The notes below the pieces were generated by a model. That model saw only the letters and a program-made list of their open reading frames with translations, did no database searches and was not told the DNA's origin. Shown piece after piece: positions 6,948 through 55,285 of a DNA stretch of 64,000 nucleotides. This DNA is from Anaerolineae bacterium (GTDB lineage: Bacteria; Chloroflexota; Anaerolineae; Fen-1058). The DNA lies in NCBI GenBank assembly GCA_046328575.1, contig JAXLWI010000019.1:1153-65152 (forward strand). Direction: 5' to 3'. Positions within the stretch are counted from its first letter, which is position 1, and the number at the start of each line of letters is the position of its first letter. The position numbers and the translations under genes were made by a program.

Positions 6948-7017
6948 GCTTTTTACTCCACCGGCATTCGGCAGTGGCCCAGCCGCTTAATACACAGTAT
7001 AGCACGCGCACCTCAAT

Positions 7018-42175: not shown

Positions 42176-43500
42176 CGAATCACCGCGTTTTGCGCGCCTT
42201 CATAACCTCGCTTAGCCGCGGGTTTCTTGGCCGCGACTTTCTTTACAGGCTTCTTAGCAACGGATTTCTTCGCCGCTTTCTTGGCCGTCGACTTTTTCCT
42301 TGCCTGCTTCTTAGCGGCCGGTTTCCTTGGCGGTCGATTTCTTCGCAGCGACTTTCTTTGGCAGGTTTCTTAGCCGCCGATTTCTTTGCCGATCGTTTCT
42401 TCGGGGCCGCCGGTGTGGCGGATTCGATCAGGACGGTGAACTGCGCGCGTTTCGTCTCGATCACGTTGAGCAGACCATCGAACGACTTGATGAATTTATC
42501 CGCCTCAATCGACGCTGCTCTGTAGGCGGTGAGATCGAAGCCCAACACCCGTAGATCAGCCACCACTTGCCGTGCGGCGGCAAGATCGGCATCGACGGTG
42601 CGCGCCACAACAGGTATGATCAATAGCGGCATAGGTTTCCGGCGGCCACCGGTGTTGACGGTGTCCGGTCCGATGAGCGTATCGACATACAACACGTCGG
42701 GGTACTTAGGGTTCTTGGTGCGATTTTGCTTCGCGCGCTGCTTGCGCGCTCCGACTGCGCAGCCAGTTTCATGAAGCGTTCACTGCCAAACAGTTCGCTG
42801 TACTTCTCAAACACGCCATTGCGAATTGGCGACGGCGGCTTTGCCCATCAACGCCACGGCCTGTGCCGCCTGCGGCCTTTAAGCGCCGCACGAGTTCTTC
42901 CGGCTTCTTGTCGAGCAACGTATCAACCATGACGACAAAGAACGACGCCACCGACGCGATGTGATCGATGCGGCGATTGGCGGCGACGCGGCGTTCCAGT
43001 TGCGCGAATATGCGCTTCGGCTACGGCAATGTAATGATCCATAGAGAACATCAACGCTAAACGGTGCGACGTTGATACCGTCATACAACGCCTCTTCGAT
43101 CGCGGGCAGACCTTCTTTGGTCGCCGGGATCTTGATCATAACGTTAAGGCGTTGTAGGGTTTGCCACAGCCAGACGCGCGTCGGCCAGCGTATAAAATCG
43201 GTATCGCCTTAATTTCGGCGACACTTCGATGCTGACATCGCCATCCACGCCGTGTGTTTGGCGAAAGACGGTTCGAAACTCATCCGCCGCCATTCCGACA
43301 TCTTCGATAGTGAGGGCGTCGTAAATCTGCTCGACGCCAGCAGCGGCAGCCAGCACCTTCATCGCTACGGTAATGATCACTGCTTCCGCCGATGGCGCCT
43401 CGAAAATCGACGGGTTCGAGGTCATGCCCAGCAAGCCTTCGGCTATCATCGCCTTGAAAACTGCCTGCCGTGATCATCTGGCGCTGAATGTTGTCGTACA
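42176..43500 (-). pseudogene. tal: transaldolase followed by a Lys/Ala-rich repeat tail, fragmented
   Basis: LLGMTSNPSIFE, MIKIPATKEGLPAIEEALYDGINV, FEKYSELFGSERF, LYVDTLIGPDTVNT in different frames; 42176..42420 encodes AAKKQARKKSTAKKAAKKSVAKKPVKKVAAKKPAAK. Confidence 0.5.
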
Positions 43501-43599
43501 GATGCTCTGGCCCAGTTGAGCGAGTTGCTGAATCTTATTCGTGTGTATGGCTCTGTCCTCGATCCCCGCTCCACGTGTCACCTTAATTTAGATCGCGAT

Positions 43600-44060
43600 G
43601 ATTCGTGTTGATTAGTGGATCAAGCGTTCTTTTCGATTGCTAATACCTTATAGTCGCCGCTGAAATTTCTCGGCGGTGTTGAACTGCAGCGCCAACGAAA
43701 GCCAGCACAATCTCGCGCGCCAACTCCACGCCGATGATGCGCGCACCAAGGCACAGCACGTTCATCGTCGTACACCTGATGGGCCGAATACGTATCGTGG
43801 CACAGGCCAGCGCGAATACCTTTCATTTTATTTAGCGGCAATACACGCGCCAACGCCGCTGCCGCAATCCACGTTGCCGCGTTCGGCACTGCCGTTTTTG
43901 GACGGCCTGGCCTGCAATAAAGCATAATCAGGATGGTCATCACCAGCAAGGTAGGTGTATTGCGCCGAGGTCGTGACGTCGTGACCGGCCTGCTCGAGAG
44001 CGTCAACCGTCCGCTTTGAGGGAGTAACCGCCGTGATCGGCGGCAATGGCCAATTTTCAT
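43600..44060 (-). pseudogene. rpiB: ribose-5-phosphate isomerase B, fragmented
   Basis: NVDCGSGVGACIAAK and KGIRAGLCHDTYSA in different frames. Confidence 0.5.
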
Positions 44061-44175
44061 CGAAGCGATCGCCCAGTAGCCAGTATCGGTCGTGATTCTC
44101 AGTATAAAGGTTACACCAAAACGCGAAGATCTACCAGCCTATTTGGGCAAGTGACGGCACCGATTTGCAATAAAA

Positions 44176-44200
44176 CGAGCGATCTGAAAACAGATCGCTC
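44176..44200 (-). terminator. rho-independent terminator 3' of tRNA-Leu
   Basis: Minus strand: GAGCGATCTG-tttt-CAGATCGCTC then TTTTATTG. Confidence 0.5.
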
Positions 44201-44202
44201 GA

Positions 44203-44284
44203 TGGGCCAGAAGGACTCGAACCTTCACGTTCTCGCGAACGGGAGATTTTAAGTCTCCTGCGGCTGCCATTTCGCCACCGGCCC
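44203..44284 (-). tRNA. tRNA-Leu (anticodon UAA), class II with long variable arm
   Basis: Acceptor GGGCCGG/CTGGCCC+A, anticodon stem GGAGA/TCTCC with loop CTTAAAA, variable arm CGTTCGCGAGAACG, T-loop TTCGAGT; CCA not encoded; T-arm/acceptor junction 1 nt short. Confidence 0.6.
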
Positions 44285-44330
44285 GTGACCGCCATTCTAA
44301 CACGCCCAGCGCGGTCACGCAACTACAAAT

Positions 44331-45610
44331 ACTTCAACTCGTGTGCTTGCCGTTCCAACTCCTCGCGGAAGTCAGGATGCGCGATGTTGATCAATGAACG
44401 TGCTCGTTCGCGGATGCGCTTGCCGTACAACTCCGCCACGCCATACTCGGTGACGATGAAGCGGATGTGATTGCGCGTGGTCACTACCGCCGCGCCCTAT
44501 TTCAACATCGCCACGATCTTGCTGGTGTTGGTGCCTTTGATCATAGCCGGGGCCGGTAGCGCGATGATGGGAATGCGCGGTGCTGCGTGAGGCGCCGTGC
44601 ATGAAATCGACCTGGCCGCCAACGCCGCTGTAAAACCGCGGGCCGATCGGATGCCGCGCACACCTGCCGATCAGATCGACTTCGATCGCGCTGTTGATAG
44701 CCACCATCCGATCGTTCTGGGCGACGACGAAAGGATCGTTGATGTACTCAGGTCGGGTGCAGTTCCACGATCGGGTTGTCATCGACAATCGTACAAGCGC
44801 TGTGTACCCAGCATGAAGCCCGCCACGATCTTTTTGCCAGGATGCAGACTCTTGCGTTCGCCGTTGATCCTGCCGCGCTCCACCAGATCGATCACGCCGT
44901 CGGCAAACAGTACTCGATATACACGCCCAAATCTTTGTGCGTGGTCAGTTCCTTCAACACCGCGTCCCGGGAATTGCGCCGATACCGGTTTGCAGTGTTC
45001 CGCACCGTCAGGGATCATGGCCGCGATGTGCTTGGCGATCCGCGCGGCCACTTCGGATAGCCGCGCATTTGAACCTCAGGCGGTTGTAATCGACCGGAAT
45101 AATGTGCGTCGTTTGCGACATGAGACCGAACGAGTCGCCCAGCGTGCGGCATCTGCTGATTGACTTCGGCGACAATCTTAGCGACCTGTGCCGCGGTTTA
45201 AGTGCGCCCACTTCAATGCCGAACGAGCAATAACCGTGTTCGTCAGGCGGGCTGACGTGAATTAAGGCCACGTCGATGGGCGAGCAGACGCGGCATCTCT
45301 GACAAAAACATCGGCGTGAGAAAGTCGGCGCGGCCTCGTTGACGACGCGCGTGCGGTCATCGCTGATGAACGGCGTATTTGACGCGCATGTGCTCTTCCA
45401 TGCCCGGCTGCACATACGCCGCGTCGCCCACCGTCGTTGCATGATTTCAGTAGTGCAGTTCCGGCGCATAATCAACCAGCGCCTTCATCACCTTTTGTGA
45501 TGCCGACAGTTGCCCGTTAGAAAGACCCGCATACCGGGCTTGATCGCCCGTACGGCCTGATCGGGCGTAGCGGTACGTTCCTGATAGAGTTTCGTCCAAG
45601 CAGCCATACT
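44331..45610 (-). pseudogene. acetyl-CoA hydrolase/4-hydroxybutyrate CoA-transferase family, fragmented
   Basis: VALIHVSPPDEHGYCSFG, EYINDPFVVAQNDRMVAINSAIEVDLIG..YSGVGGQVDF, C-terminal ...FIVTEYGVAELYGK in different frames. Confidence 0.5.
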
Positions 45611-45619
45611 GTCACCTCG

Positions 45620-46720
45620 ACCCGTTACACGTAGTTGGTGCAGCGCGGATTGCTCAACATCTCCGTCGCGAGTGTTCACGCCACGCGCCAGTGACGGATC
45701 GTCGGCGATGGCCTGATCAAGCCCTTTACGCATAGGCACGGAATGTAAGGCCAGGCCGCATTGTTGAAGGCATGCCGTGGCGGTGCGCGCCGCCGCGCAC
45801 CGTCATATTGGGGACGCAGTAATGCGTGACGTTCTCTTCGATGAACGTCGGCTTTACGATGCGTCGTCGGCCGGCTGGTTTCGACACACCCGCCTGATCG
45901 ATCGCCACACATCGCGAGCACGCACGCCTTCATCGTGCGCACCATCTCGCGCGTAATCACGATCGGGTGCGTCACCGGCTTGATAAATCGCGCCGATCAG
46001 TACGTCGGCAAACTTCACGACTTTGCGCAGGTCTGAACTCGTGCGACACCATCGTCACGGCGCGACCACCAAGATCGCATCGACGGTTTGTAGCCGTTTC
46101 AGATCCCAGTCGAGCAGGTAGACGCATTCCAGCGCCGATGCCACAAAACGCGCGCTGCGCACGTGCCTAACGTGCCCGCCAACTATCACAACTTCGGCAG
46201 GCGCTTTACCCGGCACGCAGCTCAACAGAGCATCACCTTTACCACCCCCGATCATTTTTGGGCAACATCGCGGCGATTTGCACCATCATACAGCCCACGG
46301 CTTGCGACAATGGCGTGAGAACTGGCAGAGTGCCATCATCTTGCTGGATCATTTCGTAGCCGATGGCGGTATTCTTCTGCAGCAAGGCTTCAACACGCGA
46401 ACGTCGCGCCGCGGCGGTGTAGCCCCATTAACGTCTGGCCTTCGCGTAACCAATCGGCCTCTTCAGCAGTAGGCCGCGCGACTTTCAATACGAGGTCGGC
46501 TCGTCCATACGCCTCTTGCGTGGAATAGACGATCTTGCCGCCACCAACCCATAGTGCGCGATCGCGCTGAAGCCAGCCCCCAACCCAGCACCGCGTTCAA
46601 TCACACGTGTGCCCTTCGGCGGTCAGCAGTTTAGCGCCAATCGGCGTCAAACCGACGCGGTATTCACCTTCGCGCCGTTCACGTGGAATACCAATATCCA
46701 TGTTTGTCACCTCATCTTGG
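45620..46720 (-). pseudogene. ald: alanine dehydrogenase, fragmented
   Basis: ADLVLKVARPTAEEADWLREG, GKAPAEVVIVGGHV (NAD fold), KPTFIEENVTHYCVPNMTVRGG, ITREMVRTMKACVL in different frames. Confidence 0.5.
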
Positions 46721-46789
46721 AATGAGAGATTGAAAGACGGCGGCTCAGCTCATGGCCGCCTGCCATTTTACAACTTTTTCACGCTCCCT

Positions 46790-47240
46790 TTCAACAAGAT
46801 CGGGCGTTCGGCCACGCGCAGGACCCGATCGGCCACACTGCCGTACGTCCAGCGGGCAATCCCCGATCGGCCATGCGCGTTACCACATCGCGATCAAATC
46901 GGCCTGAATATCGTGCGCATACGAGATGATCTCATTGGCCGGATTGCCAAAGCGCACTTCGCTCGACAATTCGACGCAAACCTGAGTCAGATTCTTCTCA
47001 ACGCCGTGCAGATAGTTGCGCAGTTCATCTTCGACCCGCTTCCGCCTCACCGGTTTCGTCAAACGGCTCGCCCGGATACACCGCCATCGGATAGACCATC
47101 GCGGAGGCCGCCGCTAAATCGACGACCTGCGCGACCGATAGCGAATAGACGTCAGCGCGCCGGCACGCCTTCAACACCACCTTCACATGCGGTAAGACCT
47201 GTTCAGCCAACGGCGCCCATCGGTGTAACGAGAATTCGGC
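46790..47240 (-). pseudogene. universal stress protein (UspA family), fragmented
   Basis: VELSSEVRFGNPANEIISYAHDIQADLIAMW C-terminal USP signature in one frame, N-terminal part in another. Confidence 0.4.
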
Positions 47241-47467
47241 GGTACATGGTAGCCTCCTGGCGGATTATAAACGAAGGTTGAGGCTGCGGTAGGGTATACC
47301 CACTACGGGTTAAACCTATGTTTAGATTAGCATCGATCTGGCTCAAGGGAGTGAACAACGTCTCATTCTGTCAGGTTGAATGTCACCACACGCTTGATCG
47401 GTTGGTAAAATGAAGCGCGGGTACCCGTATTCGGATACCCGCGCTTGCTCCAGGAGGAGATTGCCCG

Positions 47468-47839
47468 TTAGTTATTTGTGGTGCCAAACGATCGCGCCAA
47501 TACCGCGATACCGGCGATGACCAGGAAAATCGGCCAGACGACACCCCAGTTCATATTGAACAGGAAGATCAGGGCGACTGCCAGCGGGAACAACCCGCCG
47601 ATGAAGGCTCCGGTGACCGCGGGCGTAATGCGTTGCCCGTTGTTCTGGTAGATACGCCACGCGCTGCCCCACGCCCCCGCTGTGCCAAGCAGGATGAACA
47701 ATGCCCACCAATTACCAATGTTTAACACATTAAAGTTCTGCAACAGAAAAATTACACCCAACCCGATCAAGACTATCGCGCCAACCCAGGCGCCGCTGTT
47801 ACGCTGAACCGTTGGTTGAGAGGGTGGAAGTTCGCTCAT
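47468..47839 (-). CDS. hypothetical small membrane protein (4 TM)
   Basis: Intact 123-aa ORF, ATG with AAGGAGTGA RBS; four hydrophobic helices. Confidence 0.6.
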   Translation of the reverse strand: MSELPPSQPTVQRNSGAWVGAIVLIGLGVIFLLQNFNVLNIGNWWALFILLGTAGAWGSAWRIYQNNGQRITPAVTGAFIGGLFPLAVALIFLFNMNWGVVWPIFLVIAGIAVLARSFGTTNN

Positions 47840-47958: not shown

Positions 47959-47987
47959 TTGACAGCCCTTCCTGCTTAAGGTAATCT
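47959..47987 (+). promoter_or_regulatory. sigma70-like promoter TTGACA-N17-TAATCT, predicted leaderless start
   Basis: -10 element ends 7 nt before ATG 47995. Confidence 0.35.
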
Positions 47988-47994
47988 AAGCCCC

Positions 47995-48849
47995 ATGTCC
48001 ACCCTAACCAAGGCAGCCGTGATCGATCGCCGCGAAGTACGCTATCGCCGTCGCATGAATCTACGTGTAACCACCCCAGAGCAAGCCGTCAAGTTCGTCA
48101 ACGATGTCGGCTTCAGTTTTCTCTTCCCAATTCAAAGCGTAGAGATGCCGTCCCTTTGGGACGCGATTGCCGGTCGGGTAATGAAAACGACCAATAAGCA
48201 CAGCGGCTACGAAATCGAGCGCACCTGGGGCTGGAAGGATGAAAGTCTCGATAAGAAATGGTGGTACTACGGCAAGCTGATCCGCGACAAGGCGACCCTC
48301 GTCAGCCTCGATGTTCTGCCGACCTTCTACGCCCTCAGCGAAAACTACGGCGACTACGAGAACGATTATCTCGAAGAGTATCGCACCGGCGCGATCTCGT
48401 CGGAAGCAAAACAGATTTATGAAGCGTTGCTGCAATATGGCGCGTTAGATGCCATTCGCTTGAGGCGTGAAGCGCGGATGAGTTCCGATGAAAGCAAGCC
48501 GCGTTTCGAGAAAGCCCTGACCGATTTGCAAGCCGGTTTGAAAGTATTGCCGATCGGCATCGCGCCTGTCGGCGCGTGGCGCTACGCCTTCATCTATGAA
48601 ATCCTGCCGCGCTGGCTGCCCGACGTGCCCGATCGGGCGCGGGCGATTAGTCGGACTGAGGCCCGCCGCCGGATCCTCGATCGTTACATTCATAACGTGA
48701 TCGCTGCGCCGCTGCCCACGATCGCGCGGCTATTCAAGTGGAAATCCACTGAAGCGCAGCAAGCCGCCGAAGCGCTGGCCGCCGCAGGCCGCGTCGAACT
48801 CGACGTCAAAGTGACCGGCATCCGAGAACTTCAATTGATGGCCAAATAA
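47995..48849 (+). CDS. conserved hypothetical protein, possibly winged-helix DNA-binding (YcaQ/AlkZ-like HTH_42?)
   Basis: 284 aa; N-terminal ...FLFPIQSVEMPSLWDAIAGR and Trp-rich segments reminiscent of HTH_42 family; assignment uncertain. Confidence 0.55.
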   Translation: MSTLTKAAVIDRREVRYRRRMNLRVTTPEQAVKFVNDVGFSFLFPIQSVEMPSLWDAIAGRVMKTTNKHSGYEIERTWGWKDESLDKKWWYYGKLIRDKATLVSLDVLPTFYALSENYGDYENDYLEEYRTGAISSEAKQIYEALLQYGALDAIRLRREARMSSDESKPRFEKALTDLQAGLKVLPIGIAPVGAWRYAFIYEILPRWLPDVPDRARAISRTEARRRILDRYIHNVIAAPLPTIARLFKWKSTEAQQAAEALAAAGRVELDVKVTGIRELQLMAK

Positions 48850-50684
48850 TGTCTGCTACTCACGATCTACTCGTCATTGGCGGCGCGTCGTTGGACGTGC
48901 TGCACCTGCCCGATGGTCACTCCGTCAAATCGCCGGGCGGCGCGGGAATGTACACCGCGCTCGCCGCCGCCAAAGCGGGCGCACGGGTGTCGATGTTTGC
49001 CCCGCGCCCCAAGCCAGTTCCGAGCGAACTTCTGCCCGCGCTGGATCGCATCGACTGGATCGGCCCAATCGTTCCGCCCGATCAACTGCCGCGCTTCGAG
49101 ATCGCCCATCACGGTGGCGGACGCGCCACGCTGGTCGATGCGTTCTGGGGCGGCGAAATGCTCATCACGCCGGAATCACTCACGCCCGATCATTTAACCG
49201 CGCCCCTCGTGCACATCGCCGCCCTGCGCACTGCCGAGCGACAACTCAACTTTGCGAAAGCACTGGCTCCCGCCCCAACTCTCGCCCGATTCTCAGGGGC
49301 GGGAGTCCGCATTTCGGCGGGCACTTACGGCAAAATCTGCACCAGCGAACCGGACACAGTGCGCGCTATCATGGCGTTAGCCGATTACTTCTTCATGAAC
49401 GAAAATGAGGCCACCTTGATCTTCGGCAGCCTCGATCGAGTCCAAGCGCGACCCGGCCAATTTTTGTTCGTCACACTCAGTGCCAACGGCGCACTGGTTT
49501 TTCAGGGCAACCACGTCACCCACGTCGCAGGCGTGCCCGCTACCGAAGTCGATCCGACCGGTGCGGGCGACACGTTTTGCGGTGCCACGTTAGCCGGCCT
49601 GGCGCGCGGCCAACATCCGATTATGGCGGCGCGTGCGGCGATAGCCTTGGCCGCGGACATGATTGGTGGTGTGGGACCGACGCGGCTGTTAAGCGACGCC
49701 CCCGCCCCACCCTACCCGATCGATCCGCGGGTGGCCCCCGTGCCCGATCAGATTCAGCGCATCGCTACGCTGATTGCGCGTCTGCCCGACGTGCAGCCCT
49801 TCGACTTCACGGGCGGCTTGTTCCCGCCCGTCGATCATCCCGGCGCGCTCGACCTGTTCTTTACGTCCACCTTGCAGCAGTTCAGTTTCTGGAATTTCAA
49901 TCGCGCCGATGCACCGCGCGCCTACGGGACACCCCTAATTGCCGACTTTGACGGGCGGGCGCTCAAAGGTTCCGATTATTTGTTTGCAGCATATCGTCGC
50001 GCACTGGACGCCACTGCGACTCTGCTCACGCCGATCGGCCAGCGCGCCCTCACCGCCGATCAACTGGCCGCACTCTTTCGCGCCGACGACGGCGCCAATC
50101 CCATGCCCGCCTTCGATCTTCATCTGCAGCAGGCCAACGCCTATGGCCGCGACCTGCTGGCGCTGAACTTAACGCCGTCCGCCATCGTCGAGATCGCCAA
50201 TCGGGCCGCGCACCCACGCGCCGCGTTGTTGTCGCTATTGGATCACATTGGTGGTTACAAAGACGATCCGCTGCGCAAGAAATCGATGTTGCTGGCGTTG
50301 ATTCTCGAACAACGGCCGGAGAAGTTCTTGCACGCCGTGACCGATGAACCTCAGCCGCCTGTGATTGACTATCACCTGATGCGATCGTGTTTGCGCACAG
50401 GCTTGATCGAAATCAGTGACGTGGCACTGCGCGATCAACTCATCCGGCGTGAGGAAGTCTCAGCGCCGGATGAGTGGGCGATTCGGTTGGCGGCTTATGC
50501 GGCCATCGAGCAGGTGCAAAAACAATCGGGGCGCAGCATGGGTGCGGTGGATTGGTTCTTCTTCAATGCACGCCGCCGCTGCCCGGAAATGACGCCGCCA
50601 GACTGCGCGGCGTGCGCCATCGATGCCGTGTGCGCGCATTACGTCGAACTATTCCAGCCGGTTCGGCGCACGACGTTCTACTAG
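48849..50684 (+). CDS. PfkB-family carbohydrate/nucleoside kinase fused to about 300-aa C-terminal domain of unknown function with terminal Cys4 cluster
   Basis: N-term LLVIGGASLDVL and PfkB signature DPTGAGDTFCGATLAGL; C-term ends CPEMTPPDCAACAIDAVCAHY (C-x7-C-x2-C-x5-C); start overlaps upstream stop (TAATG). Confidence 0.75.
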   Translation: MSATHDLLVIGGASLDVLHLPDGHSVKSPGGAGMYTALAAAKAGARVSMFAPRPKPVPSELLPALDRIDWIGPIVPPDQLPRFEIAHHGGGRATLVDAFWGGEMLITPESLTPDHLTAPLVHIAALRTAERQLNFAKALAPAPTLARFSGAGVRISAGTYGKICTSEPDTVRAIMALADYFFMNENEATLIFGSLDRVQARPGQFLFVTLSANGALVFQGNHVTHVAGVPATEVDPTGAGDTFCGATLAGLARGQHPIMAARAAIALAADMIGGVGPTRLLSDAPAPPYPIDPRVAPVPDQIQRIATLIARLPDVQPFDFTGGLFPPVDHPGALDLFFTSTLQQFSFWNFNRADAPRAYGTPLIADFDGRALKGSDYLFAAYRRALDATATLLTPIGQRALTADQLAALFRADDGANPMPAFDLHLQQANAYGRDLLALNLTPSAIVEIANRAAHPRAALLSLLDHIGGYKDDPLRKKSMLLALILEQRPEKFLHAVTDEPQPPVIDYHLMRSCLRTGLIEISDVALRDQLIRREEVSAPDEWAIRLAAYAAIEQVQKQSGRSMGAVDWFFFNARRRCPEMTPPDCAACAIDAVCAHYVELFQPVRRTTFY

Positions 50685-50686
50685 AA

Positions 50687-52198
50687 TCAGTATCGCTCCA
50701 GATATGCGCCGGGGAACGATAGCCGTTTAGCGGCGCGCGGCGCTGAGTCATCGGTCGGCAAGTTGATCTGCACCATCACGCCCGGCCCATTGACGCGATT
50801 GCGCATGTAACATGCCCCGTTGACCGCCCAGACCAGCGAGGCGACCAGCGCCAATCCCAGGCCCATGCCGGCGACTTCGCCGGTAAAGTATTTCTCGGCT
50901 TGATAGTATGGTTCCCAAACTTGCGTCAGTTGTTCCGGCGACAGGGTCAAGCCGTCGTCACCAACGCACAATCGAGCGTGGCCTACGCCGTCCAGATCAA
51001 AGCGAACTTCAACGCGGGGCGCCTGCTGCGGATGAAACTTGCCGGCATTCTCCAACACTTCAGCCAGAATCCACTCGAGCGCTTTATCCGAGAGCGGCGT
51101 GATGACTGTCGCCGCTTTGGCATCGACGGTCACGGTTACATGGGCTAAAGCTAGACGGGCGCTGATCTGCGCGACCAGTTCAGGCAGTTTAGTCCAGACG
51201 AACGGCGCACCCTCGCTAATCAGACTGGTCGCCGACATGTACTGCAGAATATCGTCGACGACTGTTCGCAAACGCGTCGCGCTTTTCAACGCCAACTGCG
51301 TCATCTCATTCACCGTGAAGATCGGTAAGTCCTGAACATCGTACGCGAGCATCTCCAACGACCCCAACACTCCAGCCATTGGCTCACGCAGTTTGTGGGC
51401 TACAATACCCTGAAACGTGCGCTCATTGCGCTGTTCGAGCATGTTCAACGTAATATCGTGCAGCCTAATCAAGCGCTGGCCTTCCAAGCCCGGCCGTTGC
51501 TCGAAGATCCACACAGCCAGCCAACACGGGTGCGACGTCGCCGATTCTGGCCGTACCAGATAGCGCGTATGTGCGAGCATCTCAGTCGGTGACGATTGAC
51601 CGTTCCACGTTTCGTCCAGTTCAAGCCGATAGTGCTCAGTGATCACTTGAAGAAAAGTGCGTTCAGCCGCCTCGGTCCGATCGGCTGACAGGTTCAACAA
51701 CAGGCGCGCCTGTACGTTGGCATACACGATCCGATCGGACTGATCGACGATCACGTAGCCATCGACCGCATGCTCGATCACCCATTGGAATTGTGCTTTT
51801 TCGGCCAACCAACGGCGGTAACGATTGAGTTGCAGAATCGTGCGGATGCGGGTGCGCAATTCCGTCCGATCGAACGGCTTGGAGATGAAGTCATCGGCCC
51901 CAACTTCCAAGCCGAGCAGTTTCGCGGCCCGATCGTCCAGCGCCGTAATCATGAGCACCGGAATCTGCGCCGTGCGTGGATCGCGGCGCAATGCTTGGCA
52001 GACTTCGTAGCCGTCCATGTCCGGCATCATCACATCCAACAGCACCACATCCGGTGACAAGTTCCGCGCGAGGCGCAAGGCCTGCGCGCCGTTCTCAGCC
52101 ATCAGCAGTTCATAGCCCAGACCAAATAGCACCCCTTCCAACGCTGCGCGGCCTGCCGGCAAATCATCGACGACGAGCACTGTGCCACTAAGCGCCAT
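50687..52198 (-). CDS. hybrid two-component protein: N-terminal receiver + PAS-like region + HisKA/HATPase histidine kinase
   Basis: REC motifs VLVVDDLPAGR / VVLLDVMMPDMDGYEV / ISKPF; H-box IVAHKLREPMAGV; G-box GMGLGLALV. Confidence 0.85.
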   Translation of the reverse strand: MALSGTVLVVDDLPAGRAALEGVLFGLGYELLMAENGAQALRLARNLSPDVVLLDVMMPDMDGYEVCQALRRDPRTAQIPVLMITALDDRAAKLLGLEVGADDFISKPFDRTELRTRIRTILQLNRYRRWLAEKAQFQWVIEHAVDGYVIVDQSDRIVYANVQARLLLNLSADRTEAAERTFLQVITEHYRLELDETWNGQSSPTEMLAHTRYLVRPESATSHPCWLAVWIFEQRPGLEGQRLIRLHDITLNMLEQRNERTFQGIVAHKLREPMAGVLGSLEMLAYDVQDLPIFTVNEMTQLALKSATRLRTVVDDILQYMSATSLISEGAPFVWTKLPELVAQISARLALAHVTVTVDAKAATVITPLSDKALEWILAEVLENAGKFHPQQAPRVEVRFDLDGVGHARLCVGDDGLTLSPEQLTQVWEPYYQAEKYFTGEVAGMGLGLALVASLVWAVNGACYMRNRVNGPGVMVQINLPTDDSAPRAAKRLSFPGAYLERY

Positions 52199-52233
52199 AC
52201 TGTAGCTTGACCTTCATATCAGAATTTAGTCAC

Positions 52234-53757
52234 TCATGCGCGAACTACTGGCCGCTCGATCTCGTGGTGGCAGCCGATGTTCAGGTGGGTGCTGTCAGGT
52301 TCTGGCTCTATGATCGGCAGCGTGATCTGAACCATCACCCCCGCCCCGTCGGTACGGTTCCGCAATTGGCAAGTCCCGTTGGCTTCCCAGACCAGCGAAG
52401 CCACCAGCGACAAACCCAACCCCATCCCGGCTGCCTCCCCGGTGAAGTACTTTTCGCCTTGGTAATATGGTTCCCAGACTTGCGCCAGCTGTTCCGGCGA
52501 CAAAGTCAAACCGTCATCTATGACGCGCAAGCGCGCCTGGCGCTCGTCGTCAAGATCGAACCGGACCTCAACGTGCGGTGTCTGTAGCGGGTGAAACTTG
52601 CGGGCGTTCTCCAACAGTTCAGACAGAATCCAATCTAAGGCCGTGTCGGAAAGCCGTGTAGCGACGGCTGCGGCGGCTTCGTCTATCGTTACGGTTACGT
52701 CGGCTAGATCGAGACTAGCGCCGATCTGCTTGATCAGGTCAGGCAGTTGCGCCCACACAAATGGCTCGCCGTGCGCAGCAAGCTTGGCCGCAGACACGTA
52801 ATGCAGCACATCTTCAATCTCGTTGCGCATGCGTGTGGCGCTGCGCAGGGCCACACGCGCCATGTCATCCGCTTTGACCATCGTGCTCTCTTGAGCGTGA
52901 TAAGCCAGAATCTCCAGTGAGCCCAGCAAGCTCGCCAGTGGCGAACGCAGCTTGTGGGCTACGATGCCTTGAAAAGTCCGCTCATGCCGCCGCTCGATCA
53001 TCCGCAGCGTGACGTCGTGCAGCCGGATCAAGCGCTGACCGTTGAGTCTGAGTTGTTGATTGAAGGTCCAGACTGCCAGCCAGCACGCGTGTGCTGTCGA
53101 CGATTCTGGACGCACCAGATACCGCGTGTGCGAGACAGGCTCGACAGGTGATGTCCAATCTATCCATGCGATGGACGGCTCGGGACGATACTGCTGGGCG
53201 GCTAATTGAAAAAAGGTGCGGTCGGCCGCCTCAGCCAGATCGATCGATAGATTCAAATACAATCGCGCCTGGGCGTTGGCATATACAATCCGATCGGACT
53301 GATCGACAATCACGTAGCCATCCGCCGCTTGTTCGATCACCCACTGAAACTGGGCCTGCTCGTCCAGCAACCGGCGATAACGATTGAGCTGCGTAATGGT
53401 CCGCACCCTGATACGCAGCTCCGTCCGATCGAACGGCTTGGAGATGAAGTCGTCGGCTCCGACTTCCAGACCGCGTAGTTTAGCCATCCGATCTTCCAGC
53501 GCCGTGACCATCACCACTGGAATCTGAGCCGTCCGCGGATCATCGCGTAACCGCTGGCAGACTTCATAGCCATCCATGTCCGGCATCATGACATCCAATA
53601 GCACGATATCTGGGGCCGACGTGCGAGCCAACTGCAAAGCCTGCAGCCCATTCTCGGCCATCAACAGTTCATACCCTTGATCGAATAGCAATCCTTCCAG
53701 TGCCGCGCGTCCAGACGGCAAATCGTCAACTATAAGGACTGTGCCATTATGTGCCAT
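52234..53757 (-). CDS. hybrid receiver-histidine kinase, paralog 2
   Basis: About 65% identical to 50687..52198 by eye; preferred start MAHNGTVLIVDD (53757), longest ORF to 53778. Confidence 0.85.
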   Translation of the reverse strand: MAHNGTVLIVDDLPSGRAALEGLLFDQGYELLMAENGLQALQLARTSAPDIVLLDVMMPDMDGYEVCQRLRDDPRTAQIPVVMVTALEDRMAKLRGLEVGADDFISKPFDRTELRIRVRTITQLNRYRRLLDEQAQFQWVIEQAADGYVIVDQSDRIVYANAQARLYLNLSIDLAEAADRTFFQLAAQQYRPEPSIAWIDWTSPVEPVSHTRYLVRPESSTAHACWLAVWTFNQQLRLNGQRLIRLHDVTLRMIERRHERTFQGIVAHKLRSPLASLLGSLEILAYHAQESTMVKADDMARVALRSATRMRNEIEDVLHYVSAAKLAAHGEPFVWAQLPDLIKQIGASLDLADVTVTIDEAAAAVATRLSDTALDWILSELLENARKFHPLQTPHVEVRFDLDDERQARLRVIDDGLTLSPEQLAQVWEPYYQGEKYFTGEAAGMGLGLSLVASLVWEANGTCQLRNRTDGAGVMVQITLPIIEPEPDSTHLNIGCHHEIERPVVRA

Positions 53758-53821
53758 AGTATGACTTCTCTTCTCCATTAGAATTTAACGCTGCTTATTT
53801 AGTGCCGGGATGCGCCCGTGA

Positions 53822-55285
53822 CTACGATGCTGATTCCACTGTCGGCAGCGTGATCTGCACCACCACGCCCGGCGCATCGGTCCGATTGCGCATCTGGCAC
53901 GTCCCGTTGGCCTCCCAGACCAGCGACGCCACCAGCGACAGCCCTAGCCCCATGCCAGCCGCTTCTCCCGTGAAATACTTCTCACCCTGGTAATATGGCT
54001 CCCAGACCTGCGCCAGCTGCTCCGGCGACAGCGTCAAACCATCATCAATGACGCGCATGCGCGCCTGACCAGTTTCAGCCAGATCAAGGTGAACTTCAAT
54101 GCGTGGCAGCTGCTCGGGATGGAACTTTCGCGCGTTCTCCAGCAGCTCAGAGAGTATCCAATCGAGCGCTTTGCCTGATACTTGCGTCGCCAGCGTCTCA
54201 GGCACTTTGACCAGCGTGACCGTCACCTCGCTCAGGTTGAGGTTTGCACCAACCTGTTGCACCAAATCCGGCAGGTTGGCCCACACGAACGGTTCGTCAT
54301 AGGCGACGGTCTTTACGGCCGACATGTACTGCAGCACATCTTCAACGTCGTTGCGCAATCGAACGGCGCAGTCGCTCGCCAGGCGCGCTGTCTCCGCTGC
54401 TGTGCTGGACGGAGCCTCTCGAACGTGATGGGCCAGGACTTCTAGAGACACCAGCAAGCCGGTTACTGGCGTGCGCAACTTATGCGACACCGCGCCTTCA
54501 AAAGTACGCTCAGCCCGCCGCTTCAGCATTTGCATCGTAACATCCTGCAGACGGATCAAGCGCTGACTTTCCAAGCCGGGCCGCCGCTCAAAAATCCGCA
54601 CCGCTAGCCAACACGCACGCGCTGTCGACGTTTCGGGTCGAACCAGATACCGGGTTAGCGCGATTGGCCCGATCGGCAAAGACCAATCGATCCATGCCTC
54701 GTCAGGCTCAAGCCGATAGTGCTCGGCGGCGAGCTGAACAAAAGACCGATCAGCCGCCTCAGCCAAATCGGGTGATAGATTCAACATCGCCCGTGCCTGG
54801 GCATTGGCATAGACGATCCGATCAGACGCATCGACAATCACGTAGCCATCGGCCGCTTGTTCGATCACCCATTGGAACTGCGCTTGCTCGTCCAATAACC
54901 GACGATAGCGATTTAGGCGCGTGATGGTGCGCACGCGCGTGCGCAGCTCAATCCGATCGAACGGCTTGGAAATAAAGTCGTCGGCTCCGACCTCCAGGCC
55001 GCGCAGCTTCGCAGCCCGATCGTCCAAGGCAGTCAGCATCAGGATCGGAATCTGAGCTGTCCGCTCATCGCAGCGCAATTGCTGGCACACTTCGTAACCA
55101 TCCATGTCCGGCATCATGACATCCAGCAACACGACGTCTGGCGTTGATGTGCGAGCCAGCTGCAAAGCCTGGTGCCCGTTCTCGGCCATGACCAGCTCAT
55201 ACCCTTGATCAAATAACAGCCCTTCTAGCGCCGCACGTCCGGCTGGCAAATCGTCGACAACCAAGATCCGTTCGTTATGCGTCAT
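53822..55285 (-). CDS. hybrid receiver-histidine kinase, paralog 3
   Basis: Same architecture (MTHNERILVVDD..., AVSHKLRTPVTGL, GMGLGLSLV); AAAGGAAAG RBS. Confidence 0.85.
   Translation of the reverse strand: MTHNERILVVDDLPAGRAALEGLLFDQGYELVMAENGHQALQLARTSTPDVVLLDVMMPDMDGYEVCQQLRCDERTAQIPILMLTALDDRAAKLRGLEVGADDFISKPFDRIELRTRVRTITRLNRYRRLLDEQAQFQWVIEQAADGYVIVDASDRIVYANAQARAMLNLSPDLAEAADRSFVQLAAEHYRLEPDEAWIDWSLPIGPIALTRYLVRPETSTARACWLAVRIFERRPGLESQRLIRLQDVTMQMLKRRAERTFEGAVSHKLRTPVTGLLVSLEVLAHHVREAPSSTAAETARLASDCAVRLRNDVEDVLQYMSAVKTVAYDEPFVWANLPDLVQQVGANLNLSEVTVTLVKVPETLATQVSGKALDWILSELLENARKFHPEQLPRIEVHLDLAETGQARMRVIDDGLTLSPEQLAQVWEPYYQGEKYFTGEAAGMGLGLSLVASLVWEANGTCQMRNRTDAPGVVVQITLPTVESAS

What the first reader, a model, noticed from the sequence alone, without database searches (positions are those of the whole stretch)
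47959..50684. Two-gene module: conserved 284-aa protein (possibly winged-helix DNA-binding) plus a PfkB kinase fused to an unknown C-terminal domain ending in a C-x7-C-x2-C-x5-C cluster
The second gene has an unmistakable PfkB ribokinase-family N-terminal half (DPTGAGDTFCGATLAGL). The about 300-aa C-terminal half matches nothing I can name and terminates in CPEMTPPDCAACAIDAVCAHY. That Cys spacing resembles the [4Fe-4S] loop of EndoIII/MutY-type glycosylases (C-x6-C-x2-C-x5-C) but no helix-hairpin-helix/GPD motif is visible. The genes are coupled (TAATG) and preceded by a leaderless-type promoter. One speculative reading is a fused kinase/glycosylase-like enzyme for salvage of a (modified) nucleoside or sugar, with the upstream protein as a DNA/nucleic-acid-binding partner. 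It is the most function-unknown intact module in the window.
Basis: partly seen in the sequence, partly recalled or inferred. Interest (0 to 1): 0.65.

Follow-up and report, generated by a model that had tools for sequence, protein, structure and literature searches.

The report
Kinase fused to iron-sulfur Qng1-like glycosylase
The second gene encodes a ribokinase-type kinase fused to a distant relative of the queuosine-salvage enzyme Qng1 that still carries the four-cysteine iron-sulfur loop of DNA-repair glycosylases; this fusion is conserved across several bacterial phyla and offers a testable lead to the still unidentified kinase of queuosine-type nucleoside salvage.

Summary
Both genes exist as described: a 284-aa ORF (47995-48849) and a 611-aa ORF (48849-50684) overlapping in TAATG.

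**ORF2.** It has a PfkB kinase half with all catalytic motifs. The "unknown" C-terminal half is a divergent Qng1/Q_salvage domain. Evidence:
- Pfam scores it just above threshold.
- A predicted structure matches Qng1 crystal structures (TM about 0.7).
- Profile comparison with canonical Qng1 gives 97% probability.

It keeps Qng1's catalytic Asp-Tyr, the helix-hairpin-helix Lys, the guanine-reading Asp and the C-terminal Tyr. The two aromatic residues of Qng1's queuosine side-chain pocket are replaced by Ser-Asp.

**Cysteine motif.** The motif survives in 94 of 99 family representatives and aligns with the [4Fe-4S] ligands of E. coli endonuclease III.

**Fusion.** The kinase domain lies directly upstream of the Qng1-like domain in 80 of 83 homologous loci from several phyla. 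Canonical Qng1 is not fused in the 120 closest relatives listed.

**ORF1.** It is an AlkZ-related (HTH_42) protein. It neighbours the fusion only in the window's own Thermoflexales-like clade, in varying orientation, so a general two-gene module is not supported.

**Most likely function.** Nucleoside to nucleoside 5'-phosphate to free base plus ribose 5-phosphate, acting on a guanine-type or 7-deazaguanine-type nucleoside. The substrate is unproven. I rate it a new variant of a known kind.

The parts
47959..47987 (+). Possible sigma-70-type promoter: TTGACA (47959-47964), 17-nt spacer, TAATCT (47982-47987), ending 7 nt before the ORF1 ATG. This would give a leaderless or near-leaderless mRNA.
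   Evidence: Read directly from the sequence. The consensus scan did not report it because the -10 matches only 3 of 6 positions. Unverified.
47995..48849 (+). ORF1, 284 aa: AlkZ-related protein of the HTH_42 (AlkZ/YcaQ DNA glycosylase) superfamily. A clade-specific neighbour of ORF2.
   Evidence: PF24741 AlkZ-rel scores 126 bits (cutoff 26.5) over the whole profile. PF06224 AlkZ-like scores 28.8 bits. A 100% identical protein is named 'crosslink repair DNA glycosylase YcaQ family protein [Anaerolineae bacterium]' by NCBI. Adjacency is seen only in close relatives.
48849..50684 (+). ORF2, 611 aa: fusion of a PfkB kinase domain and an Fe-S-loop-bearing Qng1-like domain. Its start overlaps the ORF1 stop (TAATG).
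   Evidence: The fusion is collinear in 80 of 83 homologous loci.
48849..49703 (+). PfkB (ribokinase-like) kinase domain, residues about 1-285. Asp16 sits in GGASLD at the position where ribokinase-type enzymes have a ribose-binding Asp (assignment from my own knowledge). G30-G31 is the GG switch, and N184-E-N-E187 is the NxxE motif.
   Evidence: PF00294 scores 75.3 bits. The best PDB relatives are 3kd6 and ribokinases. The motifs are conserved across 17 fused orthologs at 30-51% identity.
49551..49583 (+). PfkB signature D235-P-T-G-A-G-D241-T-F-C-G245. In the ribokinase family the Asp of GAGD is the catalytic base.
   Evidence: The role of this Asp comes from established knowledge of the ribokinase family.
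49746..50681 (+). Qng1-like (Q_salvage, helix-hairpin-helix fold) nucleotide N-glycosylase domain, residues about 300-611.
   Evidence: PF10343 scores 26.2 bits (cutoff 25), residues 333-474. The AF2 model has pLDDT 87. Foldseek matches StQng1/HsQNG1 at TM 0.66-0.74, probability 1.0. A family profile hits StQng1 at E 2.7e-17. hhalign against canonical Qng1 gives 97% probability.
49971..49976 (+). Ser375-Asp376 (in KGSD), at the positions of Qng1 Tyr93-Trp94, which line the pocket for the queuosine side chain. This is the main active-site difference from Qng1.
   Evidence: Alignments. Ser occurs in 44 of 62 sequences and Asp/Glu in 48 of 62 across the family. The roles of Y93/W94 are from PMC9881137.
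50277..50282 (+). Lys477-Lys478 (in DPLRKK). Lys477 is equivalent to the helix-hairpin-helix Lys199 of StQng1.
   Evidence: Lys occupies this column in 58 of 62 sequences.
50367..50375 (+). Asp507-Tyr508-His509 (in VIDYH). Asp507 is equivalent to the catalytic Asp231 of StQng1 and Asp138 of E. coli EndoIII. Tyr508 is equivalent to the ribose-stacking Tyr232.
   Evidence: The D231N mutant chain 7ulc aligns its Asn to this column. hhalign against Nth aligns VIDYHLMR with VDTHIFRV. Asp occurs in 59 of 62 and Tyr in 55 of 62 sequences.
50550..50564 (+). Asp568-Trp-Phe-Phe-Phe572, equivalent to StQng1 Asp298-Trp299-x-x-Trp302. The Asp reads the guanine-type edge of the base and the aromatic residue stacks on it.
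   Evidence: Asp occurs in 54 of 62 sequences; the stacking position is Trp in 38 and Phe in 19 of 62. Roles are from PMC9881137.
50580..50633 (+). Cys578-x7-Cys586-x2-Cys589-x5-Cys595: predicted [4Fe-4S] cluster loop. Relative to canonical Qng1 it is part of an insertion of about 18 residues between the base-binding helix and the C-terminal tail.
   Evidence: Conservation is shown. The loop aligns to EndoIII/MutY/ROS1 cluster loops and to E. coli Nth C187/C194/C197/C203. No cluster has been shown experimentally.
50649..50681 (+). C-terminal tail LFQPVRRTTFY, ending exactly at Tyr611. It is equivalent to the Qng1 tail ...RTRTIFY, whose terminal carboxylate is part of the active site.
   Evidence: The C-terminal residue is Tyr in 57 of 62 sequences and Phe in 4. 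The canonical Qng1 consensus is PYHRTRTIFY. The role is from PMC9881137.

Best explanation
**ORF2: proposed mechanism**

ORF2 is a bifunctional salvage or catabolic enzyme.
1. The N-terminal ribokinase-like (PfkB) domain phosphorylates the 5'-OH of a ribonucleoside (inferred).
2. The C-terminal Qng1-like domain, which has the helix-hairpin-helix glycosylase fold, hydrolyses the N-glycosidic bond of the resulting nucleoside 5'-monophosphate. The products are the free base and ribose 5-phosphate (inferred from homology).

**Residue roles (by alignment with Qng1)**
- Asp507 acts as the catalytic nucleophile or stabiliser.
- Lys477 and the free carboxylate of the C-terminal Tyr611 hold the ribose.
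- Asp568 reads a guanine-type edge of the base.

**Substrate.** The base is probably a guanine or 7-deazaguanine derivative, such as queuosine or a related modified nucleoside. It is not necessarily queuosine itself, because the pocket that holds the queuosine side chain in Qng1 is rebuilt (Tyr-Trp replaced by Ser-Asp).

**Iron-sulfur loop.** The four cysteines most likely bind a structural [4Fe-4S] cluster inherited from an EndoIII-like ancestor. The cluster would fix the C-terminal tail that folds back into the active site. This is inferred, not shown.

**ORF1.** It is an AlkZ-related HTH_42 protein that happens to neighbour the fusion in this lineage. It is not an obligatory partner.
For: **Shown by tools**
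- The PfkB domain is present with GG, NxxE and DPTGAGD motifs, conserved in 17 fused orthologs.
- The C-terminal model (pLDDT 87) matches Qng1 crystal structures best: TM 0.66-0.74, probability 1.0. EndoIII, MIG and AGOG come next.
- A family profile hits StQng1 at E 2.7e-17 and HsQNG1 at E 1.5e-16 over nearly the full length.
- hhalign against 26 canonical Qng1 sequences gives 97% probability over 296 columns.
- The catalytic Asp-Tyr, the HhH Lys, the base-reading Asp plus aromatic residue, and the C-terminal R-T-x-F-Y are all conserved.
- The four Cys are conserved in 94 of 99 representatives and align with the EndoIII cluster ligands.
- The kinase domain is collinear and directly upstream in 80 of 83 loci from Chloroflexota, Gammaproteobacteria (Woeseiaceae), Gemmatimonadales, Acidobacteriota, Caldithrix and Coprothermobacterota.
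- Neighbours in various lineages are nucleoside or purine genes. They include a PNP_UDP_1 phosphorylase, a 5'-nucleotidase, SurE, a xanthine-dehydrogenase-family protein, a xanthine/uracil permease, an IU nucleoside hydrolase and an adenosine deaminase.

**From the literature**
- Qng1 prefers queuosine 5'-monophosphate, and the kinase that makes it is unidentified (PMC9881137; PMC12207525).

**From my own knowledge**
- Kinase plus nucleotide-glycosidase logic is established for pseudouridine (YeiC/YeiN).
Against: - No enzymology has been done. The substrate, the kinase activity and the Fe-S cluster are all inferred.
- The Pfam Q_salvage hit is marginal (26.2 against a cutoff of 25) and partial. 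Pairwise similarity to Qng1 is undetectable.
- Qng1 pocket residues Y93/W94 and D207 are not conserved.
- No tgt, queA or yhhQ homolog lies within about 8 kb (the fetched flanks) in 89 loci, or anywhere in the 64-kb window.
- None of the 120 closest canonical bacterial Qng1 relatives is fused to PfkB, and three neighbourhoods showed no PfkB.
- Qng1 is reported as metal-independent, so an Fe-S cluster in a nucleotide hydrolase has no demonstrated role.
- Two fused orthologs have degenerate kinase motifs.
- The Cys loop has low model confidence.
Confidence: 0.6

Rival explanations
1. Strict queuosine salvage. The PfkB domain is the missing queuosine 5'-kinase. The C-terminal domain is a true Qng1 orthologue in function (queuosine 5'-phosphate to queuine), supplying queuine to a queuine-accepting tRNA-guanine transglycosylase. 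This is a narrower version of the best explanation.
For: - Qng1 is the closest solved structure and the closest profile relative.
- The catalytic residues, the guanine-edge-reading residue and the C-terminal carboxylate are conserved.
- The Qng1 substrate is the 5'-monophosphate, and its kinase is still unknown.
- The characterised bacterial Qng1 comes from the same phylum, Chloroflexota.
Against: - The aromatic Tyr93-Trp94 of the cyclopentenediol pocket are replaced by Ser-Asp across the family.
- No Q-pathway gene lies within the flanks fetched around 89 loci, up to about 8 kb each side.
- Canonical Qng1 is never fused among its 120 closest relatives.
- The gene context points to general purine and nucleoside metabolism.
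- The genome-wide Q-pathway status of the host could not be checked.
Confidence: 0.25
2. General purine ribonucleoside catabolism. The enzyme takes ordinary guanosine, xanthosine or inosine (or a broad range) and yields base plus ribose 5-phosphate for carbon and purine recycling. It would have no special link to modified nucleosides.
For: - Neighbours include a secreted-type 5'-nucleotidase, a PNP_UDP_1 phosphorylase, a xanthine/uracil permease, a xanthine-dehydrogenase-family enzyme, an IU nucleoside hydrolase and an adenosine deaminase.
- The guanine-reading Asp is conserved, while the queuosine pocket is not.
Against: - Simpler routes (nucleoside hydrolase or phosphorylase) exist, often in the same loci, which makes an ATP-consuming route redundant.
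- The strongly conserved, elaborate pocket (KGSD, QQFxFW) and the family's slow divergence suggest a specific ligand.
- Each neighbour type is confined to one lineage, in at most 10 of 82 loci.
Confidence: 0.15
3. Nucleic-acid repair. The C-terminal domain is an Fe-S DNA (or RNA) glycosylase like EndoIII or MutY. It would work with the AlkZ-related protein on alkylated or modified guanines in DNA, with the PfkB domain regulatory or acting on a sugar terminus.
For: - The four-Cys loop and the VIDYH motif align with EndoIII.
- Neighbours are an AlkZ-related gene in the window's clade and an alkyltransferase-like MGMT-domain gene in Anaerolineales loci.
Against: - Qng1-specific features that block the DNA cleft are kept: the beta-hairpin after FSFW and the C-terminal tail ending in an invariant aromatic residue.
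- The segment between the first two Cys is acidic and proline-rich (PEMTPPD), not basic as in EndoIII (IARKPR).
- There is no Pfam HhH-GPD hit.
- Structural similarity to EndoIII is far weaker than to Qng1: TM 0.35-0.48 against 0.7.
- The conserved fusion to a small-molecule kinase fits a mononucleotide substrate.
- The DNA-repair neighbours are clade-specific.
Confidence: 0.07

Closest known systems
Qng1 / QNG1 (DUF2419, PF10343; queuosine 5'-phosphate N-glycosylase/hydrolase; Sphaerobacter thermophilus and human C9orf64; PDB 7u07, 7ulc, 7ugk)
   Same: - Same two-lobe helix-hairpin-helix fold: TM about 0.7.
- The two families are homologous by profile: E 2.7e-17 and hhalign 97%.
- Equivalent residues: D231-Y232 = D507-Y508; K199/I203 = K477/L481; D298-W299-x-x-W302 = D568-W-F-F-F572; F75-W76 = F347-W348.
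- The C-terminal R-T-x-F-Y carboxylate tail is shared.
   Different: - Identity is only 16-21%, and the similarity is undetectable pairwise.
- Y93-W94 of the queuosine side-chain pocket are replaced by S375-D376, and D207 by Ile.
- An insertion of about 18 residues carries three of the four conserved Cys. Canonical Qng1 has no conserved Cys and is reported to be metal-independent.
- This family is almost always fused to a PfkB kinase. Canonical Qng1 is standalone in its 120 closest relatives.
Endonuclease III / MutY / ROS1-type [4Fe-4S] HhH-GPD DNA glycosylases
   Same: - A C-terminal Cys-x6/7-Cys-x2-Cys-x5-Cys motif aligns with Nth C187/C194/C197/C203.
- The catalytic Asp motif VIDYHLMRSCLRTG aligns with VDTHIFRVCNRTQ.
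- Some distant family members have the exact x6 spacing.
   Different: - There is no Pfam HhH-GPD hit for the window protein, and the fold match is weak (TM 0.35-0.5).
- The loop between the first two Cys is acidic rather than basic.
- Qng1-type insertions and a C-terminal tail occupy the region where DNA binds.
- The domain is fused to a small-molecule kinase.
Pseudouridine kinase PsuK (YeiC, PfkB) plus pseudouridine 5'-phosphate glycosidase PsuG (YeiN), also found as fusions (my own knowledge, not tested here)
   Same: The pathway logic is the same. A PfkB kinase makes the 5'-monophosphate of a modified nucleoside. A dedicated glycosidase then releases the base and ribose 5-phosphate.
   Different: The glycosidase fold is unrelated, the bond cleaved is a C-glycoside, and the substrate is different.
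QueK (queuosine nucleoside hydrolase of C. difficile, IU_nuc_hydro superfamily)
   Same: It releases queuine from a queuosine precursor in bacteria (PMC9881137).
   Different: It has an unrelated Rossmann-fold, Ca2+-dependent enzyme architecture, acts on the nucleoside and needs no kinase.
AlkZ / YcaQ (HTH_42) interstrand-crosslink and N7-alkylguanine DNA glycosylases (for ORF1)
   Same: - ORF1 matches PF24741 AlkZ-rel strongly and PF06224 AlkZ-like marginally.
- NCBI names an identical protein as a YcaQ family protein.
   Different: - ORF1 is 284 aa, against 410 aa for YcaQ.
- hhalign to YcaQ is not significant.
- The catalytic (H/Q)-aliphatic-(D/Q) motif is not clearly present. Only Q47-x-V-E50 is found, at a comparable N-terminal position.
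- No member of PF24741 was found characterised in the library searched.

Membership tests
PfkB / ribokinase-like kinases (PF00294) | Profile match above the curated threshold | tested here: met
   75.3 bits against a cutoff of 25.8, E 6.8e-21. Only the C-terminal half of the profile (175-296) is matched. PDB relatives are 3kd6 and ribokinases.
PfkB / ribokinase-like kinases (PF00294) | GG dipeptide, NxxE motif and DTxGAGD motif with the catalytic Asp | tested here: met
   G30-G31, N184-E-N-E187 and D235-P-T-G-A-G-D241 are present. They are conserved in most of 17 fused orthologs and degenerate in P0164 and P0165.
PfkB / ribokinase-like kinases (PF00294) | ATP-dependent phosphorylation of a hydroxymethyl group; identity of the substrate | not testable with these tools
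   Requires an enzyme assay.
Qng1 / Q_salvage (PF10343) | Profile match above the curated threshold | tested here: inconclusive
   26.2 bits against a cutoff of 25, covering only profile positions 10-143 of 285. There is no NCBIfam hit for this domain. Family members score from 0 to 45 bits.
Qng1 / Q_salvage (PF10343) | Qng1-type helix-hairpin-helix fold | tested here: met
   Foldseek's top 11 hits are all Qng1/QNG1 chains: E 5e-10 to 7e-9, TM 0.66-0.74. hhalign against a canonical Qng1 alignment gives probability 97%, E 1e-10.
Qng1 / Q_salvage (PF10343) | Catalytic Asp231-Tyr232 and helix-hairpin-helix Lys199 | tested here: met
   D507-Y508 and K477 align to these positions. The D231N mutant chain aligns to the same column. 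Conservation is 59/62, 55/62 and 58/62 respectively.
Qng1 / Q_salvage (PF10343) | Base-reading Asp298 and stacking Trp302 | tested here: met
   D568 is Asp in 54 of 62 sequences. F572 is Trp in 38 and Phe in 19 of 62.
Qng1 / Q_salvage (PF10343) | Invariant C-terminal Tyr whose free carboxylate completes the active site | tested here: met
   The protein ends ...RRTTFY. The last residue is Tyr in 57 of 62 sequences and Phe in 4. The canonical consensus is ...RTRTIFY.
Qng1 / Q_salvage (PF10343) | Aromatic pocket for the cyclopentenediol side chain of queuosine (Tyr93, Trp94, with W48, W299, P46, H53) | tested here: not met
   Y93-W94 align to S375-D376 (Ser 44/62, Asp/Glu 48/62). W48 aligns to Phe, H53 to Phe/Tyr, and W299 is variable.
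Qng1 / Q_salvage (PF10343) | Metal-independent enzyme without conserved Cys | tested here: not met
   Four conserved Cys are present in an inserted loop. The canonical alignment has no invariant Cys.
Qng1 / Q_salvage (PF10343) | Hydrolysis of queuosine 5'-phosphate, and co-occurrence with a queuine-using TGT | not testable with these tools
   Activity needs an assay. Locally, no tgt, queA or yhhQ lies within about 8 kb in 89 loci, or anywhere in the window.
EndoIII / MutY-type Fe-S HhH-GPD DNA glycosylases | HhH-GPD profile match (PF00730) | tested here: not met
   There is no hit for the window protein. A distant family member, P0268, scores 20 bits, below the cutoff of 26.2.
EndoIII / MutY-type Fe-S HhH-GPD DNA glycosylases | C-terminal Cys-x6-Cys-x2-Cys-x5-Cys cluster loop | tested here: met
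   The window protein has x7 spacing, and distant members have x6. The loop aligns to Nth C187/C194/C197/C203 and to the EndoIII/MutY/ROS1 loops. Cluster binding itself is not shown.
EndoIII / MutY-type Fe-S HhH-GPD DNA glycosylases | Open DNA-binding cleft and a basic cluster loop that contacts the DNA backbone | tested here: not met
   The loop is PEMTPPD (acidic, Pro-rich) against IARKPR in Nth. The Qng1-type hairpin and C-terminal tail are retained. This rests on sequence and a model, not an experimental structure.
HTH_42 AlkZ / YcaQ DNA glycosylases (ORF1) | Profile match | tested here: met
   PF24741 AlkZ-rel scores 126.1 bits (cutoff 26.5). PF06224 scores 28.8 bits (cutoff 25.9).
HTH_42 AlkZ / YcaQ DNA glycosylases (ORF1) | Catalytic motif (H/Q)-aliphatic-(D/Q), or H-aliphatic-(S/T)-(D/E) | tested here: inconclusive
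   The motif definitions come from PMC9040887. ORF1 has F-P-I-Q47-S-V-E50, with Q47 at least 90% conserved and E50 invariant. It sits at a place comparable to YcaQ L-L-Q45-I-D47. No significant alignment could be obtained, and the AF2 model was poor (pLDDT 53).
HTH_42 AlkZ / YcaQ DNA glycosylases (ORF1) | DNA glycosylase activity on N7-alkylguanine or crosslinks | not testable with these tools
   Requires an assay.

The most novel reading that the evidence does not exclude
The conserved PfkB domain of this fusion is the first identifiable queuosine-type (7-substituted guanosine or 7-deazaguanosine) nucleoside 5'-kinase. Its standalone relatives would then point to the 'unknown kinase' of queuine salvage in other organisms. 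The C-terminal domain would be an ancestral, [4Fe-4S]-dependent form of Qng1. That would document how an EndoIII-like DNA repair glycosylase was converted into a mononucleotide hydrolase.
Probability: 0.25. Interest if true: 0.8.

Novelty: new variant of a known kind. Interest (0 to 1): 0.62.

Why it matters
Queuine salvage needs queuosine to be phosphorylated before Qng1 can release the base. Papers from 2023 and 2025 still call that kinase unknown (PMC9881137, PMC12207525).

- **A lead to the kinase.** The fusion of a PfkB kinase to a Qng1-like hydrolase is found in relatives from at least 392 species genomes. It gives a concrete, clonable candidate for this class of kinase, or at least shows that kinase-then-glycosylase coupling is an old and widespread bacterial strategy.
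- **An evolutionary intermediate.** The retained EndoIII-type four-cysteine loop makes the family an apparent intermediate between Fe-S DNA repair glycosylases and the metal-free Qng1.
- **A possible new role for Fe-S clusters.** If the cluster is real, this would be, as far as I found, the first Fe-S cluster reported in a Qng1-type nucleotide N-glycosylase.
- **An annotation gap.** Where a source names these proteins at all, the name refers only to the kinase ('PfkB family carbohydrate kinase'), so the second activity is missed.

Tried and rejected
**Single-sequence and direct searches that gave little**
1. A single-sequence search of the C-terminal domain against PDB sequences gave only insignificant hits (HsQNG1 E 0.84). 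Significance needed a profile of diverse family members.
2. tblastn of StQng1 against all loci and the window found nothing. No canonical Qng1 lies nearby, and the two families are too far apart for pairwise detection.

**ORF1**
3. hhalign of the family alignment against E. coli YcaQ was not significant.
4. The AF2 model was poor (pLDDT 53) because all listed homologs are at least 71% identical. I did not run a fold search on it.
5. A general ORF1-ORF2 module is rejected. AlkZ-rel lies within the fetched flanks (up to 8 kb) in only 6 of the 83 loci scanned, all close relatives, on either strand and at 0.1-5 kb. Look-ups of AlkZ-rel homologs showed divergent or 3-kb-separated arrangements. The TAATG overlap appears only in the window and its near-identical contig L090.

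**Links to queuosine or defence**
6. There is no tgt, queA or yhhQ near any locus.
7. There are no PADLOC defence-system hits for ORF1 or ORF2.
8. There are no viral structural relatives beyond a weak viral EndoIII.
9. Literature searches for the fusion or for an Fe-S Qng1 found nothing relevant. Zallot et al. 2014 could not be read, so an earlier mention of the fusion cannot be excluded.

**Tools and data that were unavailable**

**Other checks**
12. The promoter scan did not call the proposed promoter.
13. Several 'standalone' homologs in long-read assemblies (L002, L003, L095) are frameshift-split fusions, not true standalone genes. L001 and L093 appear to be genuinely standalone.

Full report
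**1. The observation**

The window holds two same-strand ORFs exactly as described. ORF1 is 47995..48849 (284 aa) and ORF2 is 48849..50684 (611 aa). The ORF1 stop and the ORF2 start share one base in ...AAATAATGTCT.

ORF2 contains DPTGAGDTFCGATLAGL. It ends in C578-PEMTPPD-C586-AA-C589-AIDAV-C595-AHYVELFQPVRRTTFY.

Upstream of ORF1 the sequence reads TTGACA, 17 nt, TAATCT, 7 nt, ATG. The -10 element is weak, and the consensus scan did not report the site. The leaderless promoter is therefore possible but unproven.

A 100% identical ORF1 product is on record from an Anaerolineae MAG contig of 66.9 kb. The closest relatives of ORF2 are in Thermoflexales MAGs, at 65-69% identity.

**2. What ORF2 is**

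*Domain assignment.* Pfam finds PfkB (75 bits) and, just above threshold, Q_salvage/PF10343 (26.2 bits against a cutoff of 25, residues 333-474).

*Kinase half.* It has the family's hallmarks:
- Asp16 in GGASLD;
- G30-G31;
- N184-x-x-E187;
- D235-P-T-G-A-G-D241.

These are conserved in 17 fused orthologs at 30-51% identity. Two orthologs have a degenerate GAGD. The nearest solved relatives are a PfkB kinase (3kd6) and ribokinases.

*C-terminal half: structure.* I aligned it with 30 homologs and predicted its structure (pLDDT 87, pTM 0.85).
- The 11 best PDB matches are all Qng1/QNG1 chains: Sphaerobacter thermophilus 7ulc, 7u07, 7u1o, 7u91, 7u5a and 7uk3, and human 7ugk.
- These matches have TM 0.66-0.74, probability 1.0 and 16-20% identity.
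- Next come endonuclease III (2abk), the thermostable thymine glycosylase 1kea, AGOG, OGG1 and TAG.

*C-terminal half: sequence.*
- A single sequence shows no significant similarity to Qng1.
- A profile of 62 diverse family members hits StQng1 at E 2.7e-17 over profile positions 3-287, and human QNG1 at E 1.5e-16.
- A profile-profile comparison with 26 canonical bacterial Qng1 sequences gives 97% probability over 296 columns at 21% identity.

**3. Residue-level comparison with Qng1**

Hung et al. (PMC9881137) showed four things about Qng1:
- It has a helix-hairpin-helix glycosylase fold.
- It prefers queuosine 5'-monophosphate.
- It uses D231 (nucleophile), Y232 and F75 (ribose stacking), K199 (ribose), D298 and W302 (base), and an aromatic pocket (W48, Y93, W94, W299, P46, H53) for the cyclopentenediol side chain.
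- It needs the free carboxylate of its invariant C-terminal Tyr323.

In the alignments the window protein corresponds as follows:

| StQng1 | Window protein | Note |
|---|---|---|
| D231-Y232 | D507-Y508 | the D231N mutant chain puts its Asn in this column |
| K199 / I203 | K477 / L481 | |
| F75-W76 | F347-W348 | |
| D298-W299-x-x-W302 | D568-W-F-F-F572 | |
| tail R-T-R-T-I-F-Y | tail R-R-T-T-F-Y | |

Conservation across 62 diverse members:

| Position | Count |
|---|---|
| Lys (K477) | 58/62 |
| Asp (D507) | 59/62 |
| Tyr (Y508) | 55/62 |
| Base-reading Asp (D568) | 54/62 |
| Stacking residue (F572) | Trp 38, Phe 19 |
| Last residue | Tyr 57, Phe 4 |

Three features are not conserved. Y93-W94 become S375-D376 (the KGSD motif, with Ser in 44/62 and Asp/Glu in 48/62). 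D207 becomes an aliphatic residue. W299 is variable.

The chemistry and the recognition of a guanine-type base and a ribose 5'-phosphate therefore look retained. The pocket that defines queuosine specificity is rebuilt.

**4. The cysteine motif**

- All 120 listed close homologs have C-x7-C-x2-C-x5-C.
- Of 99 representatives (50%-identity clusters) with a complete C-terminus, 94 keep a four-Cys motif.
- Some distant members have the exact EndoIII spacing, x6.
- The family profile hits ROS1, EndoIII and MutY. For EndoIII and MutY the match is confined to this loop (profile 272-306); for ROS1 it also covers the catalytic-Asp region.
- hhalign against E. coli Nth (E 4e-5) aligns three Cys with Nth C194/C197/C203 and the first Cys one position from C187. 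It also aligns VIDYHLMRSCLRTG with AVDTHIFRVCNRTQ, which contains the catalytic D138.
- Canonical Qng1 has no invariant Cys. Relative to it, the loop is part of an insertion of about 18 residues just before the C-terminal tail.
- Between the first two Cys the loop is acidic and proline-rich (PEMTPPD). EndoIII's loop there is basic (IARKPR). I take this as an argument against DNA-backbone binding. This is inference.
- The cluster itself is not shown. AlphaFold models this stretch with low confidence.

**5. The fusion is old and widespread; the gene pair is not**

*Family size.* An exhaustive profile search found 657 cluster representatives at E ≤ 0.001. They include fused forms of about 600 aa and standalone forms of about 310-340 aa. 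A scan of species-representative genomes found 392 loci, and the 80 best were kept. These come from Chloroflexota, Woeseiaceae and other Gammaproteobacteria, Gemmatimonadales, Acidobacteriota, Caldithrix and Coprothermobacterota.

*The fusion.* In 80 of 83 loci an orthologous PfkB domain (43-72% identity) lies directly upstream and collinear. Several apparent standalone genes in long-read assemblies are frameshift-split fusions.

*Canonical Qng1.* It is never fused among the 120 closest relatives of StQng1. Three of its neighbourhoods hold no PfkB.

*ORF1.*
- It matches PF24741 AlkZ-rel at 126 bits.
- Within the fetched flanks (up to 8 kb) it occurs in only 6 of those 83 loci. All six are the closest relatives, on either strand and 0.1-5 kb away.
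- Look-ups starting from AlkZ-rel homologs show it divergently adjacent (L084, L086, L087) or 3 kb away (L088). In all of them it sits inside a syntenic block of Usp, AlaDH, acetyl-CoA hydrolase, RpiB and transaldolase.
- This is lineage-specific synteny. The persistence of adjacency through an inversion is a weak hint of a link, no more.
- Whether ORF1 is a glycosylase is open. It is 284 aa against YcaQ's 410 aa.
- It has Q47-x-V-E50 where YcaQ has Q45-I-D47. No significant alignment or confident model could be obtained.

**6. Context elsewhere**

Each lineage has its own neighbours, and many are nucleoside or purine genes:

| Neighbour | Where |
|---|---|
| PNP_UDP_1 phosphorylase, divergently upstream | 7 loci, mainly gammaproteobacterial |
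| 5'-nucleotidase | 10 loci |
| Xanthine/uracil permease, downstream | 3 loci |
| SurE | 8 loci |
| Xanthine-dehydrogenase-family enzyme | 6 loci |
| P-loop kinase-like gene, IU nucleoside hydrolase, adenosine deaminase | operon-like run upstream of a standalone member in L001 |

No tgt, queA or yhhQ homolog lies in any of 89 loci (1.09 Mb) or in the window.

**7. Interpretation**

The best-supported mechanism has three steps:
1. A ribokinase-like domain makes a nucleoside 5'-monophosphate.
2. The fused Qng1-like domain cleaves it to base plus ribose 5-phosphate.
3. A structural [4Fe-4S] cluster, inherited from an EndoIII-like ancestor, holds the C-terminal tail in place.

Shown here: domain identities, fold, residue equivalences, conservation and the distribution of the fusion.

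Inferred: both activities, the order of the reactions, the cluster and the substrate class.

The queuosine-specific reading is attractive. The kinase that feeds Qng1 is still called unknown (PMC9881137; PMC12207525). However, the rebuilt side-chain pocket and the absence of any Q-gene linkage weaken it.

A DNA-repair role is unlikely, given the retained Qng1 tail and hairpin, the acidic loop and the kinase fusion.

**8. Novelty**

I found no paper describing a PfkB-Q_salvage fusion or an Fe-S-type Qng1 in the held library. Where a database source names these proteins at all, the name refers only to the kinase ('PfkB family carbohydrate kinase'). I rate this a new variant of a known kind, with interest about 0.6.

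Noticed in passing
window 42400-47300, minus strand: The genes syntenic with related contigs (transaldolase, RpiB, acetyl-CoA hydrolase, alanine dehydrogenase, Usp) are each hit by tblastn in two or three reading frames. This stretch therefore carries many frameshifts, either pseudogenes or assembly errors, while the two genes of the finding are intact.
   Followed up: partly
window 50687-55285 (minus strand) and 55409-60403 (minus strand): Three tandem paralogous genes encode REC-PAS-HisKA-HATPase hybrid sensor kinases (503, 514 and 487 aa). They end 2 nt from the ORF2 stop, convergently. Beyond them, at 55409-60403 on the same strand, lies a 1664-aa ORF that was not analysed.
   Followed up: partly
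L093 5582-6993 (also L094): A standalone Fe-S Qng1-like gene (330 aa) overlaps the stop of a 140-aa DUF6884-like gene. That gene has a weak PADLOC hit to DpdC of the 7-deazaguanine DNA-modification system (E 0.005). The region also holds a HEPN/AAA_16/TPR protein, a Dam-type methyltransferase, an HNH protein and an antitoxin. This is a possible 7-deazaguanine link, but the evidence is weak.
   Followed up: partly
L001 3126-7017: A same-strand run contains a P-loop (AAA_33/AAA_18) kinase-like gene, an inosine-uridine nucleoside hydrolase, an adenosine deaminase and a standalone Fe-S Qng1-like gene. A different kinase type may replace PfkB here.
   Followed up: partly
L017, L020, L021, L063, L068, L083, about 6200-7100 in each: In Anaerolineales loci, the gene immediately upstream of the fusion on the same strand is a 120-130-aa MGMT DNA-binding-domain protein. 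Its active-site Cys is replaced (PWQRV), making it alkyltransferase-like. This is a second DNA-alkylation-repair-type neighbour in another clade, and it is unexplained.
   Followed up: partly
L084 2216-5867, L087 2212-5855, L003 7401-8132: In the window's clade, the fusion is followed on the same strand by a short-chain dehydrogenase and an Abhydrolase_5 gene. The SDR recurs downstream in several further loci. Both genes are absent from the window, where the sensor kinases follow instead.
   Followed up: no
proteins P0164 and P0165 (alignment A5): Two distant fused orthologs have lost the GAGD catalytic motif and the N-terminal Asp of the kinase domain, but keep the glycosylase residues and the four Cys. 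Their kinase domains may be inactive.
   Followed up: no
window 47468-47839, minus strand: A 123-aa membrane protein with LiaF-type transmembrane domains lies divergently upstream of ORF1. It shares the 155-nt intergenic region that holds the proposed promoter.
   Followed up: partly
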